Below the pieces are notes generated by a model. That model saw nothing but the letters and a program-made list of their open reading frames with translations, was not told the origin of the DNA and did not search any database. Positions 45,672 to 63,197 of a stretch of DNA of 64,000 nt are shown here, piece by piece. The DNA is from a virus (lineage: Duplodnaviria; Heunggongvirae; Uroviricota; Caudoviricetes). A program made the position numbers and the translations under genes. The stretch covers positions 112,443-176,442 of IMG/VR virus record IMGVR_UViG_3300039208_000529, one strand, 5' to 3'. Position 1 is the first letter of the stretch, and every line of letters begins with the position of its first letter.

Positions 45672-47134
45672 GATACTGAAACACGCTCACGAATTTCGGC
45701 CAACGTCCAGTCTCGAATTATTTCGCCATTGCGGAACACCGTTTGAAGCATGTTGCCGTTGGCATTATCTTGACCTTGGACAGTGAGGACTTGCCCCTCA
45801 CGTCTTACCAAAGACAGTCTACCACGCTTAGAATTCTTTGTCGAATCCGTTGCCGGTTTCTTGAAAATTTCTCGCCCCTCTTTATTTACTTGCATCCAAG
45901 AACACTTGATGGCGAATCTTTGCGTGTCGCGGTCAAAATCCTGCAATAAGCCTCCACCGCTCCCAAAAGCGATATTATCCGCCGAAATAGTATTTCGGCG
46001 AAATGATTCCAAGATTTGTTCAACGGTATGGCGTGGTTTTCTCTCCGCAAGCATATCAGAAAGTTTTTCAGTTAAGTCAGATGTGTTCCAAGAATTACGT
46101 GTCCACTTAATACCATCGCCCTGAATCATACGAACATATGGAGGCAACACATGATATCCTTTACTATTTACTTCTGTGCCAAATTCCTCGGCTAATGCTT
46201 GGAATACCTGAATATCAATATCGGGAAGCGTTCCGGAATCTGGACGGAATACTACTGTGCCGTTCCGACTGCGGATCATGTCATAAATATCTCTGTTTTT
46301 AGCAATCACTTGATCGATAAAACCAATCGTATCAAACGAGTCGATCACCATGGCCACAAGACCCTCGGGATGCGTAGTCAGAATCTGACGAACAATGTCG
46401 GCTTCGCCTTCTGGACCCCGAGCAGTCATAATAGAGTGCTCCGTAGCAGGGATGGAAAATCCCGCCATAGGCTCATGATAGTAGTTCTTCAAAAGAGAGA
46501 GAGCAGCCATTGTATCTGTGCCCATAGCTCCGGTAGCTAGATGGGCGGCTCCCGCTAGTGCCGCAGTCTCCACAGAGGAAACTCCTCTATAACCAAAATC
46601 ATGAAGCTTGAAATCAAGCCCTGCTGGATCTCCAGTAAGGTCTAAGTATTTCTTAATGATTTTCCTAACTTCGTGACTGCCCGTAGCCACGGTGATAGGA
46701 GACCAAACTTGCATGAGAACTGTTTCAAGGAAGTTGGTAAGCCACGGAACTTGCCAGTCGGTGTTTTCGATAGTGAAAAGCACATTCCCGGTAGGAATAA
46801 TCTCTCCCTCGGGCACTGCTTTAATTACAACAGGAAGATATCCTTTGTGCTTTTTGAGAATGTATTCCCAGCCCTCACGATTGAACACATCTTCTCGCCC
46901 AAAGTGAGCAGCACACAGTTCGGCTGCTTCATCAATTTTAGCTTGAGTTACAACTTGTCCAACTAAATACTTTTTCAGAATATATTGTAACCCAAAAAAT
47001 AGACTTGCGGGGAAGCGAGCACCAACCCTTGATTCACAGTATGAATACACCTTCTCTGTACCAGGAGGATACAGAGAATGATGAGATTGCTTATAACTGT
47101 CAGTGCCAACAGCCAATAAATTGAAATTGTTCAT
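45668..47134 (-). CDS. nadV: nicotinamide phosphoribosyltransferase (NAMPT/NadV)
   Basis: GTDSYK, GFSIPATEHS and FGSGGGLLQ motifs. Confidence 0.9.
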   Translation of the reverse strand: MNNFNLLAVGTDSYKQSHHSLYPPGTEKVYSYCESRVGARFPASLFFGLQYILKKYLVGQVVTQAKIDEAAELCAAHFGREDVFNREGWEYILKKHKGYLPVVIKAVPEGEIIPTGNVLFTIENTDWQVPWLTNFLETVLMQVWSPITVATGSHEVRKIIKKYLDLTGDPAGLDFKLHDFGYRGVSSVETAALAGAAHLATGAMGTDTMAALSLLKNYYHEPMAGFSIPATEHSIMTARGPEGEADIVRQILTTHPEGLVAMVIDSFDTIGFIDQVIAKNRDIYDMIRSRNGTVVFRPDSGTLPDIDIQVFQALAEEFGTEVNSKGYHVLPPYVRMIQGDGIKWTRNSWNTSDLTEKLSDMLAERKPRHTVEQILESFRRNTISADNIAFGSGGGLLQDFDRDTQRFAIKCSWMQVNKEGREIFKKPATDSTKNSKRGRLSLVRREGQVLTVQGQDNANGNMLQTVFRNGEIIRDWTLAEIRERVSVS

Positions 47135-47409
47135 TATCCAAGTCCTTTCATAAATCCAAAAAGAATACGACTTTTCTCGTTATCCTCTCTATTATGAAAA
47201 ATCAAGTAGTTTTTGTACCGACGTTGCTCGCTAACTCTTGATGCCACAAGTAACGCAATAGGCCAATACAATGTATGTAGCATCAGTTTGTTTTGCAATC
47301 TGTATTGCAAAATTCGAGTTGAGATAGATGGCAGTCCAATATTGATGTATGTCAAAAAAACAAGCATACCAAGCAAAACAATAACTAAGGTACTCATAAT
47401 TATCTCCAT
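47134..47409 (-). CDS. small membrane protein (2 TM segments)
   Basis: Hydrophobic helices. Stop/start overlap with nadV. Confidence 0.5.
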   Translation of the reverse strand: MEIIMSTLVIVLLGMLVFLTYINIGLPSISTRILQYRLQNKLMLHTLYWPIALLVASRVSEQRRYKNYLIFHNREDNEKSRILFGFMKGLG

Positions 47410-47870
47410 GCAGGCGGCCTAATCATATATGGCATCAATTCTGCTATTAGACCGGTCTCAAGCGGAATCCCACTTTTGCTCAAAATAAGTCTATTCCAAA
47501 CTTGGTATCTATGATCCCAGTCCTTTTCAGAGATATCATCCGGTCTGTCTGTTGAATTCTGATAGTGAAAGTCTTCAATTTCCCCTACTTTTTCAAGCAA
47601 GGATTCTTCCAACTTATTTAAAGAGCAATGGATTATACCATACCAAGCGTTTGTTACATCGTCCCAATAGACAGAAATAGAAGCGTCATATTCTTCCTTT
47701 AATGCTCTATATACATTAAAGTAGTCCTCTGATTTAGCACTGCATCCATCCAAGAGATCTTCAAAAAACTGTCGTGTGATATCTCTACACTCATCTATAA
47801 CTCTAAAAAGAGCCGGTGTATCAAATGAATCAATATTAAACTTGATCCCACCCCAAATTTTTGTACTCAT
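47400..47870 (-). CDS. hypothetical protein
   Basis: Start taken at the internal Met (MSTKIWGG...), 2 nt after the upstream small ORF stop. Confidence 0.5.
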   Translation of the reverse strand: MSTKIWGGIKFNIDSFDTPALFRVIDECRDITRQFFEDLLDGCSAKSEDYFNVYRALKEEYDASISVYWDDVTNAWYGIIHCSLNKLEESLLEKVGEIEDFHYQNSTDRPDDISEKDWDHRYQVWNRLILSKSGIPLETGLIAELMPYMIRPPAWR

Positions 47871-47872
47871 AG

Positions 47873-48001
47873 TTAATCGCAGAAGCAAATTAGGGCCGCT
47901 AACCCGGCGAGGAACGCACCAAAAACAAACCCTTTGACGATGCACAACACGCAAACACCAATCATTGCGATGCCACCAATTGTGCGTCGTACGTCAATCA
48001 T
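47873..48001 (-). CDS. small membrane protein (42 aa, below the cutoff)
   Basis: ATGA overlap with the Nudix gene stop. MIDVRRTIGGIAMIGVCVLCIVKGFVFGAFLAGLAALICFCD. Confidence 0.4.
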   Translation of the reverse strand: MIDVRRTIGGIAMIGVCVLCIVKGFVFGAFLAGLAALICFCD

Positions 48002-48489
48002 TCTCTTGTTGGCCAATTTTTATACTCACTCTTTTTCCAGGTCATATAGTCTACAATCATCTGACCGTGATCAAAACAAATGTTATTAATTGCTGGACCC
48101 TCAAGGCTTGCAACGAATCCACCACCATTCATATTGCCGTCGAAACAGAAATCTTTAGTATTAAACAGCACAATATTTTTAGCATCATCTGCTGCTTTAG
48201 GTTCACCAAGAGCTTGTGCCACATAACAGACTGTTACACAATGTTCTCGGGGATCCCTGTTTGGATTAGAATACGTATGAAATTGCACAATATCCGTAAT
48301 CAAAAGACCAGTTTCCTCCTCCGCCTCACGGATAGCCGCTTGCATTGTAGTTTCTCCGATATCCACAAACCCGCCAGGCAAAGCATATCCGTGAGGCGGA
48401 TTCTTCCGTTCAATCATTACAATATGATCTTCTTTGTGAGCCAATTCAATAATGATATCGACGGTTAGCTTAGGAGTTTTGTGAGACAT
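47998..48489 (-). CDS. Nudix hydrolase
   Basis: Nudix box GGFVDIGETTMQAAIREAEEETGL. Start taken at the internal Met. Confidence 0.8.
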   Translation of the reverse strand: MSHKTPKLTVDIIIELAHKEDHIVMIERKNPPHGYALPGGFVDIGETTMQAAIREAEEETGLLITDIVQFHTYSNPNRDPREHCVTVCYVAQALGEPKAADDAKNIVLFNTKDFCFDGNMNGGGFVASLEGPAINNICFDHGQMIVDYMTWKKSEYKNWPTRE

Positions 48490-48838
48490 CAGGACGTTTC
48501 TCCGTTTTGCTTCTCGACAAAATTTTCCACCTGTCAACCGGATCTGTACCGATCAGATCTCTTACCGTAGGTTTTATATCGCCCTTATATGCTTTTGGTT
48601 TAGTCCACCTATTACCACTTTTCATACCAACCAAGCCCATGATCCTAAAAGGACAATCTTCTTTAATGTCAAAAAATCTATCCATAAATACTACAATATA
48701 TTTGTCGCCATCTGTCCTTTGGAGAATTGCCCCCTCCGACAAACCCTCGGTGTGATCGAGCGGCTCTAATTGCTTTAACAAGTCTTCTGCCCAAACATGT
48801 AACTTGTCATTCCCAGCTGCATTCAATTGATTTTCCAT
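48470..48838 (-). CDS. hypothetical protein
   Basis: 122-aa ORF. Confidence 0.45.
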   Translation of the reverse strand: MENQLNAAGNDKLHVWAEDLLKQLEPLDHTEGLSEGAILQRTDGDKYIVVFMDRFFDIKEDCPFRIMGLVGMKSGNRWTKPKAYKGDIKPTVRDLIGTDPVDRWKILSRSKTEKRPDVSQNS

Positions 48839-49520
48839 TCCAAATTACGTAGTGAAACAATTCAATGATTGGGCAACAGACCCACTCTGTTTGTCCTACT
48901 ATACCACGGTCAGGCTCATGATGATGTCCGAAAAACCAGAATTTCGGCTGAAATTGGTCCATGACAGCCTGAAGGCACTGACGATCACCCTTACTACTTA
49001 TGTCTGGACTACTATATCGCGTGTCCGAGTAAGGAATCGAAAGAGGATGGTCGTGACTGAAAATGGCATCAATTGGTCCATCTTGAGACAACGCTTTCTT
49101 GGTTTCTTCGTATGTGATACTTTCTTCTGGCCACCAGTTTAATCCTTCGGTACGATATTCTTTATCATATGAAGTAGCACCACCAAAGAACATAGCTCGC
49201 GTTGCTTCGCCAAATTCCATTACGTCACCACGAGGATGATATCTAGTCCACTTATTTCCAGATCCGCCTTTTGCTCGCAAAAGCGGATGGTTGTCGTGAT
49301 TTCCGTCGCACCAATCAATCACAATGTTAGGAGGACCATCATGTTTATAAAAGCTTTTCTTGTACTTGAAAAATTTATTATAAAGATTTGGCCAACCGTC
49401 AGCAAAATCTCCCACTTGAACAATGTGCGTAATATCGGAATGCTGCTTCATTGCTTTAGCAATAGTAATATTCATAGCGGTCCAATCACCATGAACGTCT
49501 CCTAGAACTAAAGCTTTCAT
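48807..49520 (-). CDS. Ser/Thr protein phosphatase (lambda-PPase/ApaH-like metallophosphoesterase)
   Basis: VLGDVHGD, GDFADG, DGNHD and GHHHE motifs. Confidence 0.8.
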   Translation of the reverse strand: MKALVLGDVHGDWTAMNITIAKAMKQHSDITHIVQVGDFADGWPNLYNKFFKYKKSFYKHDGPPNIVIDWCDGNHDNHPLLRAKGGSGNKWTRYHPRGDVMEFGEATRAMFFGGATSYDKEYRTEGLNWWPEESITYEETKKALSQDGPIDAIFSHDHPLSIPYSDTRYSSPDISSKGDRQCLQAVMDQFQPKFWFFGHHHEPDRGIVGQTEWVCCPIIELFHYVIWNGKSIECSWE

Positions 49521-49897
49521 CCTAAGATCCCAGGTAAATCATTTACCAAAATCGTGTATGGAACATATCTAACGGACCAAAATCCGGCATGATCTAGGTG
49601 ATCTACCATACCTAAAGCTGCTGGTTGGTTAACTGAGTGAATTACGATTGTAGTTTCTCTATGTTTTTCTTGCTCAGCAAGCCAGAAAGCAACTTTGCTA
49701 CCGGAGTTTTTATCACCGCAGTCAACATGTTCCTGACCCAGATCATGGTCCAAAAACATCATATCATACTTTCCTTTAGAAAGAAAGCGGATAGCGTCAT
49801 TTGCTGTGGTGGCATGATCAATTGAATGACCTCTTAGAGCATCGCGAAACACTTCCATACGATACTCGCTGTCCTCAAGAATAAGAATATTCATCAC
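49517..49897 (-). CDS. CheY-like receiver-domain protein (stand-alone)
   Basis: ILILEDSE...YDMMFLDHDLG pattern with conserved acidic residues. 126 aa. Confidence 0.5.
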   Translation of the reverse strand: MMNILILEDSEYRMEVFRDALRGHSIDHATTANDAIRFLSKGKYDMMFLDHDLGQEHVDCGDKNSGSKVAFWLAEQEKHRETTIVIHSVNQPAALGMVDHLDHAGFWSVRYVPYTILVNDLPGILG

Positions 49898-50085
49898 ATT
49901 TTCCAGAGTGTAGCTAGACCAGACTTCACACCTTTAGCAAGCAAGATCACAAGAGCAATGGGCCAAATTACAGCGAGACCAGCCCATTCCCAAAAGCTAT
50001 AATCCATTTTATCAAGCCATAAGATCATGTTCGTAATGTTCAATACAGCTACTCCCACCAAATAGATCTCAACTATCATTTGCAT
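49894..50085 (-). CDS. small membrane protein (2 TM segments)
   Basis: Hydrophobic 63-aa ORF. Confidence 0.45.
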   Translation of the reverse strand: MQMIVEIYLVGVAVLNITNMILWLDKMDYSFWEWAGLAVIWPIALVILLAKGVKSGLATLWKM

Positions 50086-50269
50086 CTAGCTCCATTTTGA
50101 TATTCTCGATCATATGTACTATTCGTCTGTAAGCTAAAAGTTGCCCGCGATAAATATCGAGAGTTTCTTGATGAGGCTTAGTATTTCCCTCTTGCATTTT
50201 ATTCACAAGAGATTCCGCCAGCAACATTCCTTCAATACAGGTTTTTCTTATTTCTGAGAACGATGCCAT
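50069..50269 (-). CDS. hypothetical protein
   Basis: 66-aa ORF. Confidence 0.4.
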   Translation of the reverse strand: MASFSEIRKTCIEGMLLAESLVNKMQEGNTKPHQETLDIYRGQLLAYRRIVHMIENIKMELDANDS

Positions 50270-50574
50270 GCTTCAGCCTGCTCTTCTGTCATGAAATAAC
50301 ATTCTTCCTCTGATTCAGTATCCCACGTAGAAGAAATATACCCAGCTTCTACAAGGTCGTCAAGAGTCTGTTTCATTTTGGCATCCATCAGAGCCTCTTG
50401 AAGCTCTTTAGCAGAAATCTTGTCGCCAATGTTCCATCGTGCAATCGCAAAAGCAAAAGCCCATTCAGAAAACCCACTGGGATTATCGGGATCATACTCT
50501 TCGCCAGTGCTCCAGTCGACATCCTTGCGTGCTTTTTCCAGAGGAATTTTTCTTGAAATAACGAAGTGTTCCAT
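50248..50574 (-). CDS. hypothetical acidic protein
   Basis: 108-aa ORF. Confidence 0.45.
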   Translation of the reverse strand: MEHFVISRKIPLEKARKDVDWSTGEEYDPDNPSGFSEWAFAFAIARWNIGDKISAKELQEALMDAKMKQTLDDLVEAGYISSTWDTESEEECYFMTEEQAEAWHRSQK

Positions 50575-50649
50575 TAGTTTTTCACATCAATCCAGGGTCG
50601 CGGCGGTTCGGGCTCGATACAAATCCAGCCCTCGTCTTGAATGAAATCG

Positions 50650-50973
50650 TTAGCTGCTGAAGGAATCATAATTAGTAGTTATTTGTCCTAAGTAGGCGTA
50701 TCCACCCTTTTTAAACTTTTCAAAGAGTTCTTTTTGAGTTTTTGGTCTCCGATAATTGGAAAACGCGAGAAACGGATTTGCTCCAAGCCCGCCAGCAACA
50801 AAAAGATCTGGCATACTGCTGTCTGACCAAAGTCTAAATATGACTACAGGAACACTTCTCTTAGCTTTAAATACAGCACCAGGAGTGATCAGGTCAATAC
50901 TTAGCGGTTCAGTCTTTGGCTTGAGTTTTCCATCCAGGACATTCTTCGCCCATTTTTTTATATCATCGTTCAT
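50650..50973 (-). CDS. hypothetical protein, paralogue family member C
   Basis: MNDDIKKWAKNVL...VPVV...GGLGANPF...GYAYLG signature. Confidence 0.55.
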   Translation of the reverse strand: MNDDIKKWAKNVLDGKLKPKTEPLSIDLITPGAVFKAKRSVPVVIFRLWSDSSMPDLFVAGGLGANPFLAFSNYRRPKTQKELFEKFKKGGYAYLGQITTNYDSFSS

Positions 50974-51136
50974 CGGGCCACAGATCCTCCGCCATCAGCA
51001 TCGCTCTTAAAATCTTAACTTCCAACTTCCACACTGGAATCGGAGTATTCAGAGTATACCCTTCTCGAAGGACTTCGGCAAGAATTTTCATCTCTGCCTC
51101 AGTCAAATCCAGAGTTACTCGTTTTTTCTTCGTCAC
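50963..51136 (-). CDS. small RHH-like protein (57 aa, GTG start, below the cutoff)
   Basis: GTG..TGA ORF MTKKKRVTLDLTEAEMKILAEVL... overlapping the start of 50650..50973. Confidence 0.25.
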   Translation of the reverse strand: MTKKKRVTLDLTEAEMKILAEVLREGYTLNTPIPVWKLEVKILRAMLMAEDLWPDER

Positions 51137-51249
51137 GTATATTACCTACATAAACCCATTTTTCAGCCAAACCACTCCAAAGCTCAATAATCCCACAAAC
51201 AATACACATTCTGCGGGAAATATCGTCATTGGTAAATATATGATTACAG

Positions 51250-51462
51250 CTAGGCATTTTGTTGTGGAAAAACGATAGATATTTCTACTTTAACTGGCTT
51301 AAAATGGGAAAGGCTGTAGATGTTGCTGAATTTCTGGGCGTCTTCCTGCGACACAAATAGTCTGGCCGCCTGCGGATTTCCAGTTTCGACGAATCGGCCT
51401 CGCGATCCTTCTGAAACGTACTTTCCAAGCTCACGAGTGCTCTGTAACAAATATCGTATCAT
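51250..51462 (-). CDS. hypothetical protein, first gene of the minus-strand block
   Basis: 70-aa ORF bordering the divergent intergenic region. Confidence 0.45.
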   Translation of the reverse strand: MIRYLLQSTRELGKYVSEGSRGRFVETGNPQAARLFVSQEDAQKFSNIYSLSHFKPVKVEISIVFPQQNA

Positions 51463-51683
51463 TCAAAGTTTTCCTCGACTACCTGTTTTTTAAAAAAAGC
51501 TTTCAGCTTACTAGGATGTCTGGAAATGGGCCTTCTGTCAACTGCCAATGTGGCAGCCAACGATAAGCTTGGCGTTCACAGCTGTTTACAGCTGGCTGGA
51601 AATCGAAAGATAAATTTTAGTTTCACTACCAAACGTACCTTATATATCTAACGAGTCAACCAAGAAATTCCAAAAATTTCTGT

Positions 51684-51711
51684 TTGACGATCAGAGGATT
51701 AGGTGTAGTAT
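51684..51711 (+). promoter_or_regulatory. sigma70-like promoter (TTGACG-16-TAGTAT)
   Basis: Hexamers read directly; located in the ORF-free divergent region. Confidence 0.45.
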
Positions 51712-51719
51712 AGAGGCAC

Positions 51720-51911
51720 ACGAACGAAAGAACGTGGGTTTGAAAAGTAGGAAGATGGAGTGCGGGACTAGCATCTCGCTGCAAAAAGATTGCCCCAACC
51801 GGATTGCTACTCCGGACCAAAGAGTACCAGCGGGCCAGAGCTGAGGAAAATGGTGAGTAAAGAGATCACCGCCGACCTTCGGAACTCTTGGGGCAATCAC
51901 TCGTTTTTTTT
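51720..51911 (+). ncRNA. candidate structured sRNA of about 190 nt
   Basis: Downstream of the 51684 promoter. 9-bp long-range stem GATTGCCCC (51788-96)/GGGGCAATC (51890-98) enclosing local hairpins, followed by T8 at 51904-51911. Confidence 0.35.
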
Positions 51912-51912
51912 C

Positions 51913-51940
51913 TTGACATCTTGGAACAACGTGCTATTAT
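51913..51940 (+). promoter_or_regulatory. near-consensus sigma70 promoter (TTGACA-16-TATTAT) preceded by a T-tract
   Basis: -35 at 51913-51918, -10 at 51935-51940. Drives the tRNA-like gene and the downstream structured RNA. Confidence 0.6.
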
Positions 51941-51991
51941 AGCATTACCTTCGGCGGGTCCGAGGGCATCTTTGACAATAAGGGAACACAT

Positions 51992-52065
51992 GACCCTGTA
52001 GTTTAATGGAGAACATCGGCGTTAATCTGCCGACGGCATAGGTTTGAATCCTGTCGGGGTCGCCA
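51992..52065 (+). ncRNA. atypical tRNA-like gene with an 8-nt anticodon loop (GUUAAUCU), 3-bp D stem and short variable loop
   Basis: 7-bp acceptor GACCCTG/CGGGGTC, anticodon stem TCGGC/GCCGA, T arm ATAGG-TTTGAAT-CCTGT, CCA encoded. 71 nt plus CCA. Confidence 0.45.
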
Positions 52066-53030
52066 TGACTCGATCGTCTAACTTAATAGGACACTTCCCA
52101 GCACGGGAAGAAATAGTGGAGAATGACCATTTCGAGTCACCAGAATACGTCCCTGTCACTGGGACGTTAAACCTTGTGCTTTTTTCTAGCCGGGCCGGGC
52201 ACTCTTCGGAGTGATAGGTGGAAGCTGGCTGATTGTTGGACGGTACCTACTGGAGGGCAATCACTAGGTCAGTGAGATGATGGACGGGTGGTGACACACT
52301 CTAAGTTATCGAGTAACTGGAGGTAAGAGCTTGTATGTCGCTACAAGAATACTGCCAAAGGAAGAGTGGATTTCTTCATTTATCAGAACAACGGTTGGGA
52401 AAGAACTTTATTGTAAAAAGTATCTTGGGAAAATGGCTGAAAAGCCATAAAATGGAACTATGTGAAGCAGAAGCGTCTAATCTTGTTTCCGAAAGGAAAT
52501 GAGGGTCCCGCGAGGGGTATTGCGGAGATTATCCCAAGTAATCAAAGTGATACGTGCTATTGAGAAGAGGTTGATCGCCTTGTTCAAGAAAACACAGAAT
52601 GTTTTGCATATTACTGGCCTGCTGTTGGGTGCCGCGAGGTAACGACAGGGATGAAGCTAGTGAAGGGATTAATACCCCCGTTCACAGACACCTAACCATG
52701 TATAACGTCACGTACTTATCGGTGGTCACTAGCAAAAAGGGTTAGATCTTGTGATAGCCTGAATCAAGCACTCACCGGAAAACCGAGTGAGAGGCTGTTT
52801 TAGCATCGGCACGAATGGCGGACAGCAGGTAATCATGGTGCAAAGAGATTACCATTTATGCGTCGGACGTATCCTGATCGATCTATTAGGATAGGAGTAA
52901 GTGGAAACCTTACCTGACGCACCATACAAAACGGGGGCTGCGGCCCGCGTGGATAGCCCGGCAAAGGGTGGTCCACGAAGGCGTGAAATCCTTAGAAATT
53001 AAAACGCAGATGATTAACAAAGGAATAAAA
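52066..53030 (+). ncRNA. large non-coding structured RNA candidate of about 950 nt (GOLLD/ROOL-like or degenerate group I intron-like). No ORF of 60 aa or more on either strand.
   Basis: Many short GC stems capped by tetraloops: UUCG at 52200-52213, GAAA at 52486-52499, GCGA at 52507-52516 and 52632-52639. Perfect hairpins at 52147-52167 and 52828-52853. Confidence 0.45.
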
Positions 53031-53480
53031 ATGAATCTTCTTACAACTTTACTTTTTTGCCTTGTTTGTCAAGGCAATCCATATGAACCAGCTGACTGTA
53101 GTCTTCTAGCTTTTTCATGCCCTCCGGAAAAACCACATATGAGTATTCCATGTATTATGGCGTGCGATGCTGCATATCTAGAAACATGCGAAGCGATCTT
53201 TGCAGCTTCGAGTGAAGCATGGGGAGATGTTCTTGATTTTTTGATGGAATCTGACGCAGCTTGTAGGCTGCTTCCGGTTGGTGAACAAGCCGAGTGTTTT
53301 GCTAGTAATCTAAGAATTGCTCAAGATAGCTGGTATAATATTGCAATTGCTCATAGCAATGAAATGGTACAAGCAATTGTTGATTTTCAGGAATGTGCTG
53401 AAAAATGTTGCTTTCCTGACTTGACGTTCAATCCTAAAGTTCTATTTAAAGGAACCACGCTTACCGTTCGTTCACAATGA
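53031..53480 (+). CDS. secreted Cys-rich protein, paralogue of 59351..59836
   Basis: AAGGA RBS before the internal ATG (MNLLTTLLFCLVCQG...), signal peptide. NPYEPADC...CPPEKP motif shared with the paralogue. Confidence 0.6.
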   Translation: MNLLTTLLFCLVCQGNPYEPADCSLLAFSCPPEKPHMSIPCIMACDAAYLETCEAIFAASSEAWGDVLDFLMESDAACRLLPVGEQAECFASNLRIAQDSWYNIAIAHSNEMVQAIVDFQECAEKCCFPDLTFNPKVLFKGTTLTVRSQ

Positions 53481-53671
53481 CCAATTTAATACAGTGGGCT
53501 AAAGAACAATTGTATAGGCCACGCTGTGAAAATTGCGATAGTTATGAAATGATTTGGTGGGGTGGAATAAAACACAAAGAAGAATGGTGGTGCTGTCTTG
53601 AGTGCAACGATCTTCTTTTTAGAGAATTCGATTGCGGGGTGGAGCAGTCTGGTAGCTCGTCAGTCTCATAA
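53477..53671 (+). CDS. small zinc-ribbon-like protein; 3' end overlaps tRNA-Met by about 39 nt
   Basis: ATGA coupling with the upstream gene. CENC...CCLEC pairs. Confidence 0.4.
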   Translation: MTNLIQWAKEQLYRPRCENCDSYEMIWWGGIKHKEEWWCCLECNDLLFREFDCGVEQSGSSSVS

Positions 53672-53710
53672 ACTGAAGGTTCACGGGTTCAAATCCCGTC
53701 CCCGTTACCA
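53633..53710 (+). tRNA. tRNA-Met (anticodon CAU) with an unpaired 1-72, initiator-like
   Basis: Close to E. coli tRNA-fMet (TGCGGGGTGGAGCAG...CTCATAA...GGTTCAAATCC), but the anticodon stem lacks the three consecutive G-C pairs. Confidence 0.7.
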
Positions 53711-53711
53711 T

Positions 53712-54182
53712 TTAAGATTTCACTAGATGTTCAATTGCATGACAGTTTGGACATAGTATTTCTAAATTTGACAACTTGTTATTTTTGTGGTTATGATCTA
53801 TATGATGCACCTGTAGTATTTTTTTATATTTATTGTAGTTACATCTATTACATTTATTTGGAAGCTTACTCCACGCTAAAGCACGATATCCTGTACCATA
53901 GTGATTAGGTTGAATGGCTTTTATTCCACCGATGCGTTGAGCCTGATCTTTATGTTGTCGGCAACAAAAGAATAAACCGCTTTTTGAATTACGCTGTTTG
54001 CTGCGGTTAAGATAAAACGGTTTCTTACACTGAGCACATTTAACATTGGGTACAGGATCTCGTTTACGGAATCTATTTGAACAAGAAATGGAACAAAACC
54101 GACCGTTGCCTCGATTGACTTCTTTCAACGATGCTTTAAATAGTTGGTGACAATACTCACATAAGCGATTTGTCGTTTTCAT
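53712..54182 (-). CDS. HNH homing endonuclease
   Basis: HHIDHNHKNN...LEILCPNCH motif. Lone minus-strand gene between tRNAs. Confidence 0.8.
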   Translation of the reverse strand: MKTTNRLCEYCHQLFKASLKEVNRGNGRFCSISCSNRFRKRDPVPNVKCAQCKKPFYLNRSKQRNSKSGLFFCCRQHKDQAQRIGGIKAIQPNHYGTGYRALAWSKLPNKCNRCNYNKYKKILQVHHIDHNHKNNKLSNLEILCPNCHAIEHLVKS

Positions 54183-54197
54183 TATATAAATATCTCC

Positions 54198-54273
54198 GGG
54201 GGTATAGTGCTAATTGGTAACACACGGCCCTTGCAAGGCCGAATACGGGGATCATAACCCCGTGCCTCCACCA
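54198..54273 (+). tRNA. tRNA-Ala (anticodon UGC) with a non-canonical T-loop (ATCATAA)
   Basis: Acceptor GGGGGTA/TGCCTCC, anticodon arm CGGCC-CUUGCAA-GGCCG, CCA encoded. Confidence 0.6.
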
Positions 54274-54318
54274 GTATATTACACTAATGCAGACTGAACT
54301 CGCTCCACCATAAAACAA

Positions 54319-54403
54319 GTGCAATGCCCAGGGCGGATCTTCGACGGAAGATGCCGGTTCGACTCCGGAGGGACTGTAGAGGTTCGAATCCTTAATTGCA
54401 CTT
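54319..54403 (+). ncRNA. tRNA-like element: perfect 7-bp acceptor GTGCAAT/ATTGCAC, no CCA, two T-arm-like hairpins; it does not fold as a canonical cloverleaf
   Basis: Hairpins CCGG-TTCGACT-CCGG, GAGG-TTCGAAT-CCTT and ATCTTC-GACG-GAAGAT read directly. Confidence 0.35.
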
Positions 54404-54438
54404 TTAGAACGCATCCGATCCCGGGGTAGCAGCTAGCA

Positions 54439-54675
54439 ATGTCATTGGACAAAAAGATCAGGGACGAGCAAGTGGAAGGCTTGTATTACAAGTATTTTAC
54501 GGAAGATGGCGGACAATATATCACCATACCTACAAAATTTGAAGATGAGTGGTATGTTGGTGTTTATGATGCTTTTACGGGAATGGAACTAAAAGACCCA
54601 AAAGCAAGATTGCTTAGGTTCTATAACGTTACTGCTTCTGAAGCTTCAGACGAAGCCGTTAAACTAGTCACATGA
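54439..54675 (+). CDS. hypothetical protein
   Basis: 78-aa ORF. Confidence 0.5.
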   Translation: MSLDKKIRDEQVEGLYYKYFTEDGGQYITIPTKFEDEWYVGVYDAFTGMELKDPKARLLRFYNVTASEASDEAVKLVT

Positions 54676-54983
54676 AAACCAAAATCTATTACAGTGTACA
54701 AAATTATGGCGATGGCACTGCTCATCCTGTGTTTTTTAGTTCACAAGAATTAGCTGATCTGCATCAAAAACATCAATGTGAAGGTTGGGCTGAAGATTGT
54801 GTTGGTTTTATCGAAATTGAATCCGATAATCCTATTCAATGCGTTCAGGTGCAAACTCGCAAAGATATGCTCAAAGAGCTTCACGAAGATTTGTTTGATG
54901 AAAACGGTGAATTAGAGTCCTGGGTTGACGACGACGACGAGTCGTGGAAATTCTATCAAGACATTCTAATGTTGGATCAATAA
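54672..54983 (+). CDS. hypothetical acidic protein
   Basis: ATGA overlap with the upstream gene. Confidence 0.5.
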   Translation: MKTKIYYSVQNYGDGTAHPVFFSSQELADLHQKHQCEGWAEDCVGFIEIESDNPIQCVQVQTRKDMLKELHEDLFDENGELESWVDDDDESWKFYQDILMLDQ

Positions 54984-55576
54984 TATTGAAGCAGTATCCC
55001 TCAATCCCATCGAAGATCATTTACAGCACTCCTATTTATGCTTTCGATAAACTGGACGGCTCGAATATTCGCGTCGAATGGACGAGAAAACGCGGGTTTC
55101 ACAAATTTGGCCGCAGAAACGGATTGTTGGACGACTCAAATCCAATCCTAAAAAAATCGATCCCCATATTTGAAGATAAATATTCTGATGATCTGGAAAA
55201 GATATTCTGCAAGCAAGGCTGGGACAAGACAATTGCTTACGTAGAATTTTATGGATCCAATTCCTTTGCCGGATTTCACGATGAATCCGACGACCACACG
55301 GTAACACTCTTTGATGTGTGGGTCCATAAGAAAGGCTTCGTACTTCCAAACCACTTTCTTTCTCTATTTAAAGATGTTGATATTCCTAATGTTGTGCATC
55401 GTGGTAAGGTCAATAAAGAAGTAGAAGGAAACATTCGTCAATCCACACTTGACGGAGTTACCTTTGAAGGTGTAGTGTGTAAGGGGCCGGGCATCTCTTT
55501 CAAGATTAAGACTAGAGCCTGGCTTGAAAAATTGAAGGCCGTGTATAGTGATCAGGAGTTTGAGCGTCTCAAATGA
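54944..55576 (+). CDS. minimal ATP-dependent RNA ligase-like nucleotidyltransferase (Rnl2-type NTase core)
   Basis: Motif I AFDKLDGSN; motif IV DGVTFEGVVCK; motif V SFKIKTRAW. Start position uncertain. Confidence 0.6.
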   Translation: MEILSRHSNVGSIILKQYPSIPSKIIYSTPIYAFDKLDGSNIRVEWTRKRGFHKFGRRNGLLDDSNPILKKSIPIFEDKYSDDLEKIFCKQGWDKTIAYVEFYGSNSFAGFHDESDDHTVTLFDVWVHKKGFVLPNHFLSLFKDVDIPNVVHRGKVNKEVEGNIRQSTLDGVTFEGVVCKGPGISFKIKTRAWLEKLKAVYSDQEFERLK

Positions 55577-55718
55577 GACAGTACGGGAAAACTAAGATTA
55601 AGTGTAAGGTGCCTGGTCACGGACACGGTTGCAGTATTTGTGTTCCAGATACCGATAAAAAAATAGGGCGGGCCCGTGCTCGTCGCAAAGGAAAAAAAGA
55701 ATGTCTCGGTGGTGTTTA
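55573..55718 (+). CDS. small Cys/His-rich basic protein (48 aa, below the cutoff); 3' end overlaps tRNA-Gly
   Basis: ATGA coupling to the ligase stop. MRQYGKTKIKCKVPGHGHGCSICVPD...RARARRKGKK. Confidence 0.3.
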
Positions 55719-55778
55719 ATGGTAGCACAAGGGATTTCCAATCCTTTAGTCTGAGTTCAAATCTCAGTCGGGACTCCA
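55703..55778 (+). tRNA. tRNA-Gly (anticodon UCC)
   Basis: Acceptor GTCTCGG/TCGGGAC, anticodon arm AGGGA-UUUCCAA-TCCTT, T-loop TTCAAAT, CCA encoded. Confidence 0.8.
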
Positions 55779-55788
55779 AATTTTTATT

Positions 55789-56238
55789 ATGAAAGAAAAA
55801 ATCGACGGCCTGAGGGAGCAAGCGAAAGACTTGGAAGAGAGAGCGTCGCTGCTCGAAGCATACAGCGTCTTGCGGGAAGCAAGTCATCTAGAATGGCGAG
55901 CAAGAGAAATGCTTGGTTTTCCAAACGACATGCTTCATGTGTGTCGTGCTCTTGATAAAGCTAAACACAACATTGCGATCAAGCTTGGTCACAGCGAGAG
56001 AGCAGAAAAACTTATTCAATGCGGTATGACTCCTGAGTTTGTTGAAGGTTGTAATTTTGTCGACGATGATACTGCTGCTGCATGTCTCGCTACGTGGCTG
56101 TTTGATCAATTTGGATTATTTGAGTACCTGTCTGATGCATCAGATTATAAACAGGACTATCAGGGAGTTTTTGATAAAGTTTCAGAGATTTTCCCGTTAG
56201 GATTAGAGTTTTATAAAACAGCTAATCACGATACCTAA
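55789..56238 (+). CDS. hypothetical protein
   Basis: 149-aa ORF starting 11 nt after the tRNA-Gly CCA. Confidence 0.55.
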   Translation: MKEKIDGLREQAKDLEERASLLEAYSVLREASHLEWRAREMLGFPNDMLHVCRALDKAKHNIAIKLGHSERAEKLIQCGMTPEFVEGCNFVDDDTAAACLATWLFDQFGLFEYLSDASDYKQDYQGVFDKVSEIFPLGLEFYKTANHDT

Positions 56239-56503
56239 GTAATGACGAAAAAATGAGTCGTTCTACGTTGTCAGTAGGATACCTTCTCGTGGGCGGAAGC
56301 CTCCCATTGGGAGAAACTTGATCCACGGTTGAAATGACAAGCTATTTAAAAAACCCACAGTATATATTTGGGTGCCTATAATCAAGTAGCTTCTACTGGA
56401 AATCGGTAGAATTGAAAATAAATACCGGTCAGTTTATAGGATAGCATTCCGGATGAGGTCGTGTAAACCGGCCAGAAAGCGGAGTATCTTACACGTCATT
56501 ACG

Positions 56504-56531
56504 CTTGACTGGCACGCAAAGTGTGCTAGAA
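56504..56531 (+). promoter_or_regulatory. sigma70-like promoter (TTGACT-16-TAGAAT) upstream of 56542..56796
   Basis: Hexamers read directly, in a 300-nt intergenic region. Confidence 0.5.
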
Positions 56532-56541
56532 TGTACTTACT

Positions 56542-56796
56542 ATGAGTGATCTAGACAAATGGATCGAGGGCCATATCGCAGGATGGCAAAGAGTGCTGCC
56601 ATCCATTTTCAGCGATCTTGTTTCTGACGATCAGCTTGTTTATGAAGATGGCAAGCAACAAATTCTCGGCATGGTTCAATGTCTTGAGGTTCTTAGGAGG
56701 CTGAAGCTTCGCGAGACAACCCTTGAGGATGAATGGGAAAAACCGATGCCTGGACCTCACGTAGAAGCTATGTTGGAGGAAGTATGCAGTCCGTAG
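56542..56796 (+). CDS. hypothetical protein
   Basis: 84-aa ORF. Confidence 0.5.
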   Translation: MSDLDKWIEGHIAGWQRVLPSIFSDLVSDDQLVYEDGKQQILGMVQCLEVLRRLKLRETTLEDEWEKPMPGPHVEAMLEEVCSP

Positions 56797-57014
56797 ATTG
56801 GATTTACGATTGGGTGGATCTTAAATTTCGCAGCAGCGAGTTTGCTGATGTTGATAAAAGATTGGCGTCTATTGATTTGCAGAAAACTAATATGACAATC
56901 TTATTGACTTGGCTCACGGCAACATTTTCAGCTAGGTCTAAATTGCCATCGCGTGAAGCTATTTTTAATTATGTGGATGAAAATTCTCACGATGCAGCAA
57001 GGGGCCTGAAATGA
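56733..57014 (+). CDS. hypothetical protein
   Basis: 93-aa ORF. Confidence 0.4.
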   Translation: MGKTDAWTSRRSYVGGSMQSVDWIYDWVDLKFRSSEFADVDKRLASIDLQKTNMTILLTWLTATFSARSKLPSREAIFNYVDENSHDAARGLK

Positions 57015-57202
57015 CCAAAGAGGAATTTATTCAACAATATATTGTCCAGTTTATGGCATCGTATGCGGCTGTAAATTATGCAGATGCGTGTTGTATGGGA
57101 GCGTTTGGACATTTACATAGATCGGAAGATGCTGAACGTCTAGCTGAAAAAGCTTGGGATGATTATGTTTTGTACACTACTCGTGGAAGAAAAACAAAAT
57201 GA
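57011..57202 (+). CDS. hypothetical protein
   Basis: ATGA overlap with the upstream gene. Confidence 0.45.
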   Translation: MTKEEFIQQYIVQFMASYAAVNYADACCMGAFGHLHRSEDAERLAEKAWDDYVLYTTRGRKTK

Positions 57203-57603
57203 ATAAGCAGTACGTTTGTAGAATTCACACCAACAGATATTCTGGCACTTTCGTTAGAGAGATTGGTGCATACATTACTGGCCAGTCTGGTGAGTTAGGC
57301 TCACATGAAAACGCAGAAATCGCTGAAGCAGAGTTAAGCGAATTTGTTTTTGACTGGTTTGACGAAAATATGCTTTTTGTTGGTCCAGAAGGTGAAACAG
57401 AGGTCGCAATTATTGCTCCTACTGATCAGTGCGTACAGATTGAGTTTTATGAGCCCGTGCCCGACGATATCCGTGAGGTTATTAAAGAACGTGCTAGATC
57501 ATTCACTCAAATTGATGATGTTTTTGGAATCCGGAAGGATCTGGAGATTACCGACATTGAATTCTTGACTCTTGAAACGCAAGTGACAGAAAAACCGCAA
57601 TGA
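57199..57603 (+). CDS. hypothetical protein
   Basis: ATGA overlap with the upstream gene. Confidence 0.5.
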   Translation: MNKQYVCRIHTNRYSGTFVREIGAYITGQSGELGSHENAEIAEAELSEFVFDWFDENMLFVGPEGETEVAIIAPTDQCVQIEFYEPVPDDIREVIKERARSFTQIDDVFGIRKDLEITDIEFLTLETQVTEKPQ

Positions 57604-57995
57604 AAAAAGTGACGATTAAACGCTCTCAGTGGCAACGTGGAGGCAGCGACAATACTTATGAACTCTTTGAAGAGAAGGACACCAATCTATGGGGAGCAAA
57701 GACTAGCTCTGGTTGCTGTCTCGGTCATGTTTTGCATCAAGCACACGGTAAATCATATAAGTCTATGCGTGGAGTTTATGCTCCGGATTCACTTGCTGAA
57801 AAAGAGGACAAAAATAATCCTCTAACACATAAAACCAAAAGTCTTGTTTTTGATAGATGCGACTATAACTGTACTGATTTTGCAGAAGAAGCTATCCGAA
57901 TCAATGATGATAATATGATCTCGGATAAGATGCGTGAATACAGACTGAAGCTTCTTTTCAAGCGAAATGGTTATGAACTAGAGTTTGTAGACTGA
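57600..57995 (+). CDS. hypothetical protein
   Basis: ATGA overlap with the upstream gene. Confidence 0.5.
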   Translation: MKKVTIKRSQWQRGGSDNTYELFEEKDTNLWGAKTSSGCCLGHVLHQAHGKSYKSMRGVYAPDSLAEKEDKNNPLTHKTKSLVFDRCDYNCTDFAEEAIRINDDNMISDKMREYRLKLLFKRNGYELEFVD

Positions 57996-62479: not shown

Positions 62480-63197
62480 TTCCTTACTATATGTAAAAAA
62501 CTTAGAAGTCTCTGGTTTTTCCTTACTTATAATTTGCCCCCAAAGGGGCGGGCCACGCCGCTCGCGGCGGCTACTCGAAGCCGGGCAGGCCCCCTGCCAA
62601 AATGGCAGTCCCGACTGCGGGAAAAATGTTCGCACCATTTACAGAACCCGCATGGGCGACGCCTTGATCGAACATATGTATAATACACCGTATGGCGGTG
62701 TAGTCAAGTTGTTTTCAAAGAAAATGGGCAGGGGAGTTTAGCCCTTGGGGCTTTGCCCCCCTGCCACTATGACGCAATAATTTCAAAAAATATCGCTATC
62801 GGTTAGATTCCCGGGACGGCTAGCTCCGATCACCACCTAACAAATAGCCACTATATAATAGGCACGTTCCCCCGATTCATTTCGGGGCGGGGGTTTCCGC
62901 CGACTGGCGTGTCTAAATATGAAACAGCCAGATTCTCACTTGTAAAATATCTAAAATCTGTGAAATTCGCCGGTGGACTTATGATCTACTGCCTTTCCGG
63001 CTCACATTCATAATAACCCATCCGGCAAAGTTGGCAAATGGATTTCTGGCTTTCTCTTCCCCACCTTATATACAGGGAACAGCCGAAAGGTTTTTTGGAT
63101 TTTCGTTTGCCACCTTGCGGAAAATGATTATACTGCTAGTGAACCTATTTCAAGCCCCCTTGAGGGGTAGTAACCAAAAAACAGAGGTATAAATAAA

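What the first reader, a model, noticed from the sequence alone, without database searches (positions are those of the whole stretch)
51684..51911. Candidate small RNA with its own promoter and terminator in the divergent control region
TTGACG-16-TAGTAT at 51684-51711 is followed by about 190 nt. In that stretch a 9-bp long-range stem (GATTGCCCC at 51788-96 with GGGGCAATC at 51890-98) closes internal hairpins (CCGGA/TCCGG, CAGC/GCTG, CCGA/TCGG). A run of eight T follows at 51904-51911, immediately before the next promoter. The only ORF-track entry in this region is the weak antisense ORF 51691..51900.
Basis: seen in the sequence. Interest (0 to 1): 0.5.

Follow-up and report, generated by a model that had tools for sequence, protein, structure and literature searches.

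The report
Short early non-coding RNA unit in phage
A conserved early promoter in an uncultured tRNA-rich phage drives a roughly 190-base structured non-coding stretch that ends in a stem plus eight U, most likely a small early RNA of an ordinary kind, and it lies beside a much more unusual, previously undescribed large structured RNA.

Summary
TTGACG-16-TAGTAT, the long-range stem (a perfect 11 bp), the inner hairpins, T8 and the next promoter are all at the stated coordinates.

The promoter match alone is at chance level. However, six related uncultured phage genomes have the same layout at the same place: leftward promoter, A-tract, P1 ending in GGTG-TAsTAT, a short non-coding stretch of 69-194 nt, a run of 5-8 T, then a second promoter. 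The window's P1 is 24/28 identical to that of L011.

The stretch is non-coding and folds better than shuffles (z -2.6 to -3.3). It matches no Rfam family.

Its body sequence is not conserved across the family, so covariation cannot be tested. The terminator is non-canonical: an 89-nt multi-branched "loop" and a 5-nt non-U spacer before U8. No expression data exist.

Best reading (about 0.45): a discrete early non-coding RNA whose stem plus U8 also shields the next promoter. The main rival is a leader or tandem-promoter spacer that is read through.

By kind it is a new member of a known class, of modest interest.

Immediately downstream, promoter P2 drives an aberrant tRNA, then a cloverleaf with no anticodon loop, fused to a roughly 700-nt RNA. 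That RNA is conserved in one other phage, with 50 doubly compensated pairs. It is the more novel object.

The parts
51654..51659 (-). Putative -35 (TTGACT) of the leftward promoter, back to back with P1. A weak -10 (TACGTT) lies at 51637-51632.
   Evidence: Sequence. The same 'GTCAAG, A-tract, TTGAC' arrangement occurs in six relatives, where the leftward -10 is followed 6-7 nt later by the ATG of the first leftward gene. The function here is inferred.
51684..51711 (+). Promoter P1: TTGACG, 16-nt spacer ending in GGTG, TAGTAT.
   Evidence: A regex for TTGACn..GTGTAsTAT hits once at the divergent region of each of L001, L009/L010, L011, L012 and L013; L002 has GGGTACTAT. The alignment shows 24/28 identity with L011, spacer included.
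51718..51911 (+). Predicted transcript of about 190 nt (start inferred 7 nt after the -10; end within U8).
   Evidence: Fold -62.5 kcal/mol, z -2.6; z -2.9 without the U run. No Rfam match at E up to 10. No credible ORF. Start and end are inferred, not measured.
51719..51782 (+). 5' part: small hairpin CACG/CGUG (51719-36), an A-rich linker containing UUUGAAAAG, and hairpin 51747-51782.
   Evidence: the 70-nt 5' part has z -2.1.
51788..51798 (+). 5' arm of the closing stem (GAUUGCCCCAA), preceded by A5 at 51783-87.
   Evidence: I5: 11 nt, 100% complementary.
51799..51887 (+). Enclosed multi-branched domain: hairpin 51799-51815 with a 7-nt loop; helix 51820-25/51884-89 closing three hairpins (51828-43, 51852-70, 51872-82).
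   Evidence: Minimum-energy and centroid folds agree. All pairs are Watson-Crick, so the fold alone does not tell the strand.
51888..51898 (+). 3' arm of the closing stem (UUGGGGCAAUC).
51899..51911 (+). Spacer ACUCG plus U8: the presumed termination site, 1 nt before the -35 of the next promoter.
   Evidence: A run of 5-8 T ends the equivalent stretch in all six relatives. Not called by the terminator scan, because the 'loop' is 89 nt.
51913..51940 (+). Promoter P2 (TTGACA-16-TATTAT with TG), the start of the next unit. It marks the boundary and is not part of the RNA.
   Evidence: 11 of 12. It drives the odd tRNA at 51992-52065 and the tRNA-like element plus large RNA at 52066-52770.

Best explanation
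The stretch is the first rightward transcription unit of the divergent early control region of an uncultured, tRNA-rich phage (source contig 110 kb; a second contig carrying the same neighbouring gene is 178 kb).

Proposed mechanism, step by step:
1. Host sigma-70-type RNA polymerase starts at P1 (TTGACG-16-TAGTAT), at about 51718. This is inferred from the consensus match and from conservation.
2. The roughly 190-nt transcript is not translated. This is shown as far as sequence can show it.
3. It folds into two 5' hairpins and a 111-nt multi-branched domain closed by a perfect 9-11-bp stem. This is predicted.
4. When the 3' arm of that stem emerges, followed by ACUCG-U8, a good fraction of polymerases stop within the U run. 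This is inferred.
5. Termination releases a discrete, stably folded, non-coding early RNA. It also keeps P1 transcription from running over the strong P2 promoter, which begins 1 nt later.

What the RNA does in trans is not determined. The promoter, the closing stem plus U-run ending and the position are conserved in the family, but the body sequence is not. I therefore infer that the RNA does not act through a conserved base-pairing seed. It is either fast-evolving (a host- or defence-specific decoy or regulator) or valued mainly as a structured, terminated 'stopper' unit.
For: Promoter:
- The P1 type and the layout (leftward promoter, A-tract, P1, 69-194 nt, T run, second promoter) recur in L001, L002, L009/L010, L011, L012 and L013. 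The phosphoesterase of these genomes is only 47-55% identical to the window's.
- P1 with its spacer is 24/28 identical to L011.
- TTGACA-16-TAnnAT promoters also precede tRNA genes elsewhere in the window, for example at 40561 (12 of 12) and at 39550 (TAGTAT).

Non-coding:
- No gene is called there.
- Stops of every kind occur in all frames.
- The ORFs have no family hit.
- A frame-shifting indel lies inside the only alignable pair of counterparts, L009 and L011.

Structure:
- z is -2.6, -3.3 and -2.9 depending on the bounds used.
- The L011 counterpart has z -3.9 and the same plan: a 5' hairpin, a closing stem spanning 89 nt, a 7-nt spacer and U5.
- L002 (span 91, spacer 0), L013 (span 45, spacer 6) and, read by eye, L009 also end in a long-range closing stem before the U run.
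- In L009, L011 and L013 that stem reads GAG..CUC-AU, with inner pairs that differ on both sides.

Ending:
- T8 is one of four such runs on the + strand.
- A T run ends all seven units. By my own rough estimate, a run of 5 or more T in about 150 nt has a chance of 0.15-0.35 per genome, so seven of seven is unlikely by chance.

Independence from the downstream RNA: in L013 the homologous P2, tRNA-like element and large-RNA module lies elsewhere, behind a protein gene's terminator, with no such small unit in front of it.
Against: - There are no expression data.
- P1 alone matches 9 of 12, which is at chance level.
- The terminator is non-canonical. Its 'loop' is an 89-nt branched domain, and five non-U bases (ACUCG) separate the stem from U8. 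The RNA-DNA hybrid at the expected release point would therefore be only partly rU:dA. The scan did not call it.
- The T run could instead be an A/T-rich upstream element of P2.
- The RNA body has no alignable homologue, so the fold has no covariation support.
- The counterparts in L001, L002, L012 and L013 fold no better than shuffles.
- All pairs of the 3' domain are Watson-Crick, and A5 precedes the stem, so the element would look like a stem plus T5 on the minus strand as well.
- A promoter that is better conserved than the RNA it makes is not the usual pattern for trans-acting small RNAs.
- No target-like complementarity was found in the window or to the neighbouring large RNA.
Confidence: 0.45

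Rival explanations
1. Leader or tandem-promoter spacer. P1 and P2 are tandem promoters for the same downstream RNA genes, as with the rrn P1-P2 pairs of bacteria. P1 transcripts mostly read through the weak stem plus U8. The 190 nt are then a 5' leader that RNase P cuts off at the tRNA and that is degraded. The T run is a leaky attenuator or an A/T-rich upstream element of P2.
For: - The terminator is non-canonical and was not called.
- T8 abuts the -35 of P2.
- In the relatives P1 and P2 lie 70-190 nt apart in front of tRNA-Met.
- The body sequence is unconserved and of variable length.
- Several counterparts fold no better than shuffles.
- A tRNA that would provide a processing site follows within 80 nt of T8.
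Against: - In L001, L002 and L012 the T run follows a stem at 0-3 nt, the canonical terminator spacing.
- The distance from the T run to the -35 of P2 varies from 1 to more than 20 nt, which does not fit an upstream promoter element.
- The window and L011 RNAs are clearly more stable than shuffles.
- An unselected spacer would not be expected to keep a closing stem with changes on both sides, as in L009, L011 and L013.
Confidence: 0.25
2. Promoter-level function. What is selected is initiation at P1 itself. Possibilities are coupling with the back-to-back leftward promoter through supercoiling, binding of polymerase or a regulator, or transcriptional activation of a nearby origin. The transcript is a by-product that only has to be short and to stop before P2.
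For: - The promoter, spacer included, is far better conserved than the transcript: 24/28 identity with L011 against an unalignable body.
- The back-to-back arrangement with the leftward promoter is invariant.
- The cumulative GC skew turns at this point.
- Relatives carry iteron-like repeats just downstream of the tRNA-Met that follows.
Against: - In the window the iteron and GC-rich block lies 10 kb away, at 62480-62720, so no origin is at hand.
- This reading does not explain the excess folding stability of the window and L011 RNAs.
- It does not explain the conserved block shared by L009 and L011.
Confidence: 0.15
3. DNA-level palindrome or bidirectional stop (A5, stem, ACTCG, T8) that merely separates the two divergent halves. 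There is no P1 transcript of its own, or the RNA lies on the minus strand.
For: - All pairs of the 3' domain are Watson-Crick.
- On the minus strand the stem is followed directly by T5.
- Sliding-window z scores are -2.4 on the plus strand and -1.6 on the minus strand.
Against: - No promoter points leftward through this stretch. The leftward promoter lies to its left.
- P1 is conserved and points into it.
- The 5' hairpin contains a G-U pair that works only on the plus strand.
Confidence: 0.05
4. The stretch encodes a small protein: 29-36 aa from 51734 or 51755, 31-50 aa from 51790 or 51850, or the 69-aa antisense ORF.
For: The ORFs exist. AGGAAG and GAGGA lie just before two of the ATGs.
Against: - The Shine-Dalgarno-like motifs lie only 2-3 nt from the ATGs.
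- One ORF would run through U8 and the next promoter.
- None has a Pfam hit.
- None was called in the source annotation.
- No ORF is shared with the relatives, and L009 and L011 differ by a frame-shifting indel.
Confidence: 0.03
5. Chance. An ordinary intergenic sequence happens to contain a 9-of-12 promoter match, an inverted repeat and a T run.
For: The promoter match is at the shuffle level. z scores of -2.6 to -3.3 are not extreme.
Against: The same promoter signature, layout and T run occur in seven genomes. The 11-bp perfect repeat was not matched by any of 200 shuffles in folding energy.
Confidence: 0.05

Closest known systems
Short PR'-tR' transcript of lambdoid phages (lambda '6S' RNA; StxS of Stx phages; PMC7547250)
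   Same: A constitutive sigma-70 promoter is followed within about 200 nt by a terminator. This gives a short non-coding RNA at the head of a long transcription unit, and that by-product can act as a small RNA.
   Different: In the lambdoid case the unit is late, read-through is controlled by the Q antiterminator, and the terminator is a canonical hairpin. Here the setting is a divergent early region, a second strong promoter follows at once (so read-through is not needed), no antiterminator has been identified, and the stem closes an 89-nt branched domain.
5'UTR-derived, prematurely terminated ncRNA candidates of virulent Pseudomonas phages (ONT-cappable-seq; PMC10914365)
   Same: Short phage transcripts that start at a mapped promoter and end by early termination, without an ORF. 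Many occur per genome and their function is mostly unknown.
   Different: Those are defined by transcript ends and northern blots and lie ahead of protein genes. This one is defined by sequence only and lies ahead of RNA genes.
Small stable RNAs of the T4 tRNA region (species 1 and 2, rnaC and rnaD) (my own knowledge, not checked here)
   Same: Structured phage RNAs of 120-140 nt and unknown function, encoded next to phage tRNA genes.
   Different: The T4 RNAs are cut out of the tRNA precursor rather than having their own promoter and terminator. No sequence or Rfam match links them to this RNA.
Tandem P1-P2 promoters of bacterial rRNA and tRNA operons (my own knowledge)
   Same: Two strong sigma-70 promoters 100-200 bp apart in front of stable-RNA genes.
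   Different: Those have no stem plus U run between the two promoters.
phi29-family pRNA (my own knowledge)
   Same: An RNA of about 170 nt from an early promoter at the edge of the genome map. Its sequence diverges fast among relatives while its architecture is kept.
   Different: pRNA belongs to small protein-primed podoviruses and is part of the packaging motor. Nothing here points to packaging, and no shared fold was demonstrated.

Membership tests
Intrinsic (Rho-independent) terminator | G+C-rich stem | tested here: met
   Perfect 9-11-bp stem with a GCCCC/GGGGC core.
Intrinsic (Rho-independent) terminator | Short loop (about 3-8 nt), simple hairpin | tested here: not met
   The stem encloses 89 nt with five further helices. 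The scan, which allows loops of 3-8 nt, did not report it.
Intrinsic (Rho-independent) terminator | U tract directly (0-2 nt) after the stem | tested here: not met
   Five non-U bases (ACUCG) lie between the stem and U8. The counterparts in L002, L001 and L012 have 0-3 nt; those in L011 and L013 have 6-7 nt.
Hfq-type trans-acting small RNA | Own promoter, and a 3' stem followed by a long U tail | tested here: inconclusive
   The promoter is conserved and U8 is present. The 3' stem is not a simple hairpin, and the host and its Hfq are unknown.
Hfq-type trans-acting small RNA | A conserved single-stranded seed with complementary targets | tested here: not met
   The body is not conserved among relatives. 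It has no complementarity longer than 11 nt within the window. Host targets could not be searched.
Lambdoid PR'-tR' leader RNA | Terminator read-through controlled by a Q-type antiterminator encoded nearby, with late genes downstream | not tested
   No antiterminator was sought. Downstream lie RNA genes with their own strong promoter, which makes that logic unnecessary.
Any described RNA family (Rfam 15, including riboswitches, 6S, tmRNA, Y RNA, ribozymes) | Covariance-model match | tested here: not met
   No match at gathering score or at E up to 10, other than chance snoRNA hits at E 0.1-0.8. ARAGORN finds no tmRNA.
6S RNA | Long irregular rod with a central open-promoter-like bubble | tested here: not met
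   The predicted fold is multi-branched, not a rod.
Positional family 'P1 RNA' of this phage group (defined here) | Follows the GGTG-TAsTAT promoter, which lies back to back with the leftward promoter | tested here: met
Positional family 'P1 RNA' of this phage group (defined here) | No ORF; ends in a run of 5 or more T before the next promoter | tested here: met
Positional family 'P1 RNA' of this phage group (defined here) | Homologous sequence or shared fold | tested here: inconclusive
   Only L009 and L011 align clearly (z 11.7). A weak chain links L011-L013 (3.7), L013-L002 (3.3) and window-L011 (2.2). A closing stem before the U run is present in five of seven.

The most novel reading that the evidence does not exclude
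The small RNA is the first gene of a purely non-coding 'RNA island' of 1.57 kb (51463-53031). The island holds the small RNA, an aberrant tRNA with an 8-nt anticodon loop, and a cloverleaf with no anticodon loop fused to a roughly 700-nt ornate RNA. In this reading the small RNA works together with these others, for example as one of a set of early RNA decoys or regulators directed against host tRNA- or RNA-targeting defences. The phage also carries three RNA ligases and a CCA-adding enzyme. The P1 RNAs of the family would then be a fast-evolving, position-conserved class of early phage RNAs.
Probability: 0.1. Interest if true: 0.7.

Novelty: new member of a known kind. Interest (0 to 1): 0.35.

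Why it matters
The small RNA on its own is a modest finding. Phages are known to make short, promoter-proximal, terminated non-coding RNAs, and most have no known role.

Two points give it some value:
- It is not a one-off. A whole group of uncultured large tRNA-rich phages keeps a strong promoter, a short non-coding body and a T run at the same spot, with the promoter better conserved than the RNA. That poses a clear question, whether the RNA or the act of transcription is what is selected, and it can be tested in vitro with sigma-70 polymerase alone.
- It marks the edge of an unusual 1.57-kb gene-free stretch. The main occupant of that stretch, a tRNA-like cloverleaf fused to a roughly 700-nt RNA with dense compensatory changes and no Rfam family, is a good candidate for a new large structured phage RNA and deserves its own follow-up.

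Tried and rejected
- Rfam at gathering score on the whole window, and at E up to 10 on 51400-52500, 51900-53200 and 51300-53300: only the tRNA and chance hits.
- ARAGORN: no tmRNA.
- BLASTN of 51400-52400 and 52300-53050, and megablast of 44000-58000, against 50,697 GenBank phages: nothing, or only tRNA.
- Exact 28-mer of the RNA in IMG/VR: none.
- Homologues of the adjacent 70-aa protein among 5.8 billion proteins: only itself, on two contigs. Closer relatives therefore do not seem to exist in public data.
- Relatives found through the phosphoesterase gene in IMG/VR and JGI metagenomes are all 47-55% identical. BLASTN and nhmmer of the non-coding region against them gave nothing for the small RNA.
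- L007, the best partial match, does not reach the divergent region.
- Pairwise local alignment of the seven P1 RNA bodies: only L009 and L011 are clearly related.
- Coding readings: Pfam on all the small ORFs and a stop-codon census to test for a recoded genetic code. Both rejected.
- Antisense-target search within the window, and duplex prediction against the neighbouring large RNA, in the window and in L013: no signal above shuffles. Global duplexfold on sequences this long is not informative.
- The 11-nt direct repeat GGGCAATCACT (51891 and 52255) is within chance expectation.
- Hammerhead-like CUGAGGA at 51841-47: the remaining core elements are absent and Rfam is negative.
- The anticodon-like 7-nt loop UUGCUAC in hairpin 51799-51815 is likely coincidence.
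- No covariance model of the small RNA was built. With a single sequence it would add little.
- Nearest cultured phages by protein are only about 29-37% identical, so no transcriptome from a relative can be borrowed.

Full report
SETTING

The window comes from a JGI metagenome contig (3300038492, Ga0169446_00002, 110 kb). It belongs to a phage-like genome with:
- at least ten tRNA genes;
- ribonucleotide reductase and thymidylate synthase;
- three RNA ligases and a tRNA nucleotidyltransferase.

No cultured phage is close. The best protein identities are 29-37%, and there is no DNA match in GenBank phages.

Genes run leftward up to 51462 and rightward from about 53031. GC skew turns at about 52000. 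The source annotation calls no gene between 51463 and 52967. All six frames there carry stops of all three kinds. The finding therefore lies at the left edge of a 1.57-kb gene-free divergent region.

THE OBSERVATION

Every element is at the stated coordinates:
- TTGACG-16-TAGTAT at 51684-51711.
- A perfect inverted repeat, 11 bp rather than 9 (51788-98 with 51888-98).
- The three listed hairpins, plus two more helices.
- ACTCG-T8 at 51899-51911.
- One base later, a much stronger promoter at 51913-40 (11 of 12, with TG).

The predicted RNA (51718-51911) folds into:
- two 5' hairpins;
- a domain in which the long stem stacks on helix 51820-25/51884-89;
- a side hairpin at 51799-51815;
- three small hairpins on that inner helix.

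Minimum-energy and centroid folds agree. Stability exceeds shuffles moderately: z -2.6 for the whole RNA, -3.3 for the 3' domain (0 of 200 shuffles as good), and -2.9 without the U run. In a sliding-window scan of the neighbourhood this is one of several local minima, not an outlier.

The promoter match by itself is at chance level. The terminator scan does not report the stem plus T8, because the 'loop' is 89 nt.

COMPARATIVE EVIDENCE

Close relatives do not exist in the searchable collections.
- The adjacent 70-aa protein has no homologue apart from itself, on two contigs.
- A 28-mer of the RNA is absent from IMG/VR.

Through the phosphoesterase gene 2 kb away I obtained seven related contigs at 47-55% protein identity: L001, L002 (the same contig as L008; L004 is 99.8% identical over this region), L009/L010, L011, L012 and L013.

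None aligns with the small RNA. All, however, show the same plan at the same place:
1. The -35 of a leftward promoter. In L013, L002 and L001 its -10 is followed 6-7 nt later by the ATG, suggesting leaderless mRNAs.
2. An A-tract.
3. P1, whose spacer ends in GGTG and whose -10 is TAsTAT.
4. A stretch of 69-194 nt without a shared ORF.
5. A run of 5-8 T.
6. A second sigma-70-type promoter in front of tRNA-Met.

The window's P1, spacer included, is 24/28 identical to that of L011.

The transcribed bodies behave differently.
- Only L009 and L011 are clearly related (local alignment z 11.7). Weak links join L011-L013, L013-L002 and window-L011.
- Between L009 and L011 an indel shifts the reading frame inside the conserved block, which argues against coding.
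- Five of the seven end in a long-range stem that closes most of the RNA just before the U run. Four come from the folds: window (span 111 nt, 5-nt spacer), L011 (span 89, spacer 7; z -3.9), L002 (span 91, spacer 0) and L013 (span 45, spacer 6).
- L009 is the fifth, read by eye from the sequence.
- In L009, L011 and L013 this stem reads GAG..CUC-AU, with inner pairs that differ on both sides.
- L001 and L012 end in small canonical hairpins.
- L001, L002, L012 and L013 fold no better than shuffles.

INTERPRETATION

The conserved promoter, the absence of coding capacity and the invariable T run directly before the next promoter make a short P1-driven, non-coding transcription unit the best reading.

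That it yields a discrete RNA depends on termination at the stem plus U8. This is plausible but not canonical. A closing stem of this strength forming just behind the polymerase could release the transcript at the second to fourth U. However, the five non-U bases weaken the case.

Main rival: P1 transcripts read on, and the 190 nt are a leader removed at the tRNA.

Second rival: initiation at P1, not the RNA, is what matters. This draws on the unusual fact that the promoter is far better conserved than its product.

Rejected or unlikely readings:
- Coding.
- A minus-strand element. This is unlikely because no promoter points that way and the 5' hairpin needs a G-U pair.
- Any described RNA family.

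I found no target-like complementarity.

RELATION TO THE NEIGHBOURS

P2 drives a tRNA with an 8-nt anticodon loop at 51992-52065. It scores 52 bits in Rfam, and ARAGORN cannot name its anticodon.

Directly abutting it is a cloverleaf that neither tool calls, at 52066-52142. It is followed by a hairpin, a U-rich stretch and about 600 nt more.

This whole module is homologous to L013 15603-16320:
- The core is 76% identical, E 8e-51.
- Each cloverleaf folds on its own (z -4.1 and -3.7). Both end in CCA and lack an anticodon loop; L013 has a GUAA tetraloop instead.
- By my reading, six of the seven acceptor-stem pairs differ on both sides.
- The consensus fold of the roughly 700 nt has 155 pairs. 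Of these, 50 changed on both sides and kept pairing, and none is broken. The slid controls give 3-7.
- The structure was derived from these same two sequences, which inflates the contrast but hardly by tenfold.
- No Rfam family matches in either genome.
- No further copy was found in IMG/VR or in GTDB genomes.

In L013 the module lies elsewhere, behind a protein gene's terminator, and has no small unit in front of it. The small RNA is therefore not an integral part of the large RNA. In the window the module appears to have been placed between the ancestral P1 unit and tRNA-Met, which is now at 53633.

VERDICT

The unit is real in the comparative sense and is non-coding. Whether it gives a discrete, functional small RNA is open (about 0.45).
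- By kind it is a new member of the known class of short promoter-proximal phage RNAs, of modest interest (0.35).
- The neighbouring tRNA-like element plus large RNA is the more novel object and should be followed up separately.

Noticed in passing
window 52066-52770 (+); L013 15603-16320 (+): Candidate new large structured RNA of about 700 nt. It is 76% identical between two phages whose proteins are about 48% identical. The consensus fold has 155 pairs, 50 of them changed on both sides and kept (slid controls 3-7), with GNRA-capped hairpins. No Rfam match. Found in only these two contigs..
   Followed up: partly
window 52066-52142 (+); L013 15603-15672 (+): A cloverleaf tRNA mimic at the 5' end of the large RNA. 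It has acceptor, D-like and T-like arms and ends in CCA, but the 'anticodon' arm carries a 5-nt loop (window) or a GUAA tetraloop (L013). Six of the seven acceptor pairs differ on both sides. Neither ARAGORN nor the Rfam tRNA model calls it. It may be a processing signal..
   Followed up: partly
window 51992-52065 (+): A tRNA gene with a good overall score (52 bits) but an 8-nt anticodon loop, GUUAAUCU. ARAGORN reports no valid anticodon. It sits directly in front of the cloverleaf mimic and behind the strong promoter at 51913-40..
   Followed up: partly
window 40450-40525 (-), promoter 40561-40534 (-); also L011 17850-17925: A tRNA with anticodon CUA (amber-suppressor type, labelled 'Pyl' by ARAGORN) behind a perfect 12-of-12 sigma-70 promoter. 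TAG is still used as a stop by 10 of 56 long ORFs in the window..
   Followed up: no
window 62480-62720; L002 3300-3700 (-); L001 2200-2450 (-): TCCTTACT-type iteron-like repeats plus a G+C-rich block (..GGGGCGGGCC.CGCCGCT..GCGGCTACTCG..), shared with the relatives. There the repeats lie just downstream of tRNA-Met and recur 3-4 times at 50-60 nt. A P1-type promoter (TTGACT..GGTGTATTAT, 62707, minus strand) reads into the block. It may be an origin or another RNA..
   Followed up: no
relatives L013, L002, L001 (divergent region); window 51463-51653: In three relatives the leftward promoter's -10 is followed 6-7 nt later by the start codon, suggesting leaderless mRNAs. The window instead has about 170 nt with palindromes (CTGCCAATGTGGCAG; GTTCACAGCT/GTTTACAGCT), and the minus strand folds with z -2.2 to -2.6..
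   Followed up: no
window-wide; relatives near P1 and P2: The motif CTTGAAAA occurs 13 times in the window against 6.7 expected (1 of 100 shuffles reaches this), mostly on the transcribed strand. It recurs next to promoters in the relatives, for example L013 CTTGAAAAagagggTATAAT. A one-mismatch copy (TTTGAAAAG) lies inside the small RNA at 51740-48. It may be a phage-specific promoter or regulator site..
   Followed up: no
L002, L012, L013, L009, L001 (end of the P1 units); window 52172-52186; L013 about 15700: The T runs often carry the prefix CCTG(C/T), as in CCTGCTTTTT and CCTGTTTTTT; after the cloverleaf hairpin it is TGTGCTTTT. This may be a sequence-specific stop or processing signal rather than a plain U tract. 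The window's T8 lacks the prefix..
   Followed up: no
L013 16742-16825 (+): A further tRNA-like element at the 3' end of L013's non-coding stretch. It has a weak hit to the Tymovirus tRNA-like model (E 1.8) and reads by eye like a tRNA-His-type cloverleaf. ARAGORN does not call it..
   Followed up: no
window 23333-24397, 32888-33889, 54944-55576, 26711-27985: Three RNA ligase genes and a tRNA nucleotidyltransferase, alongside the many tRNAs. This is an RNA-repair toolkit that fits a phage under pressure from host tRNA- or RNA-cleaving defences..
   Followed up: no
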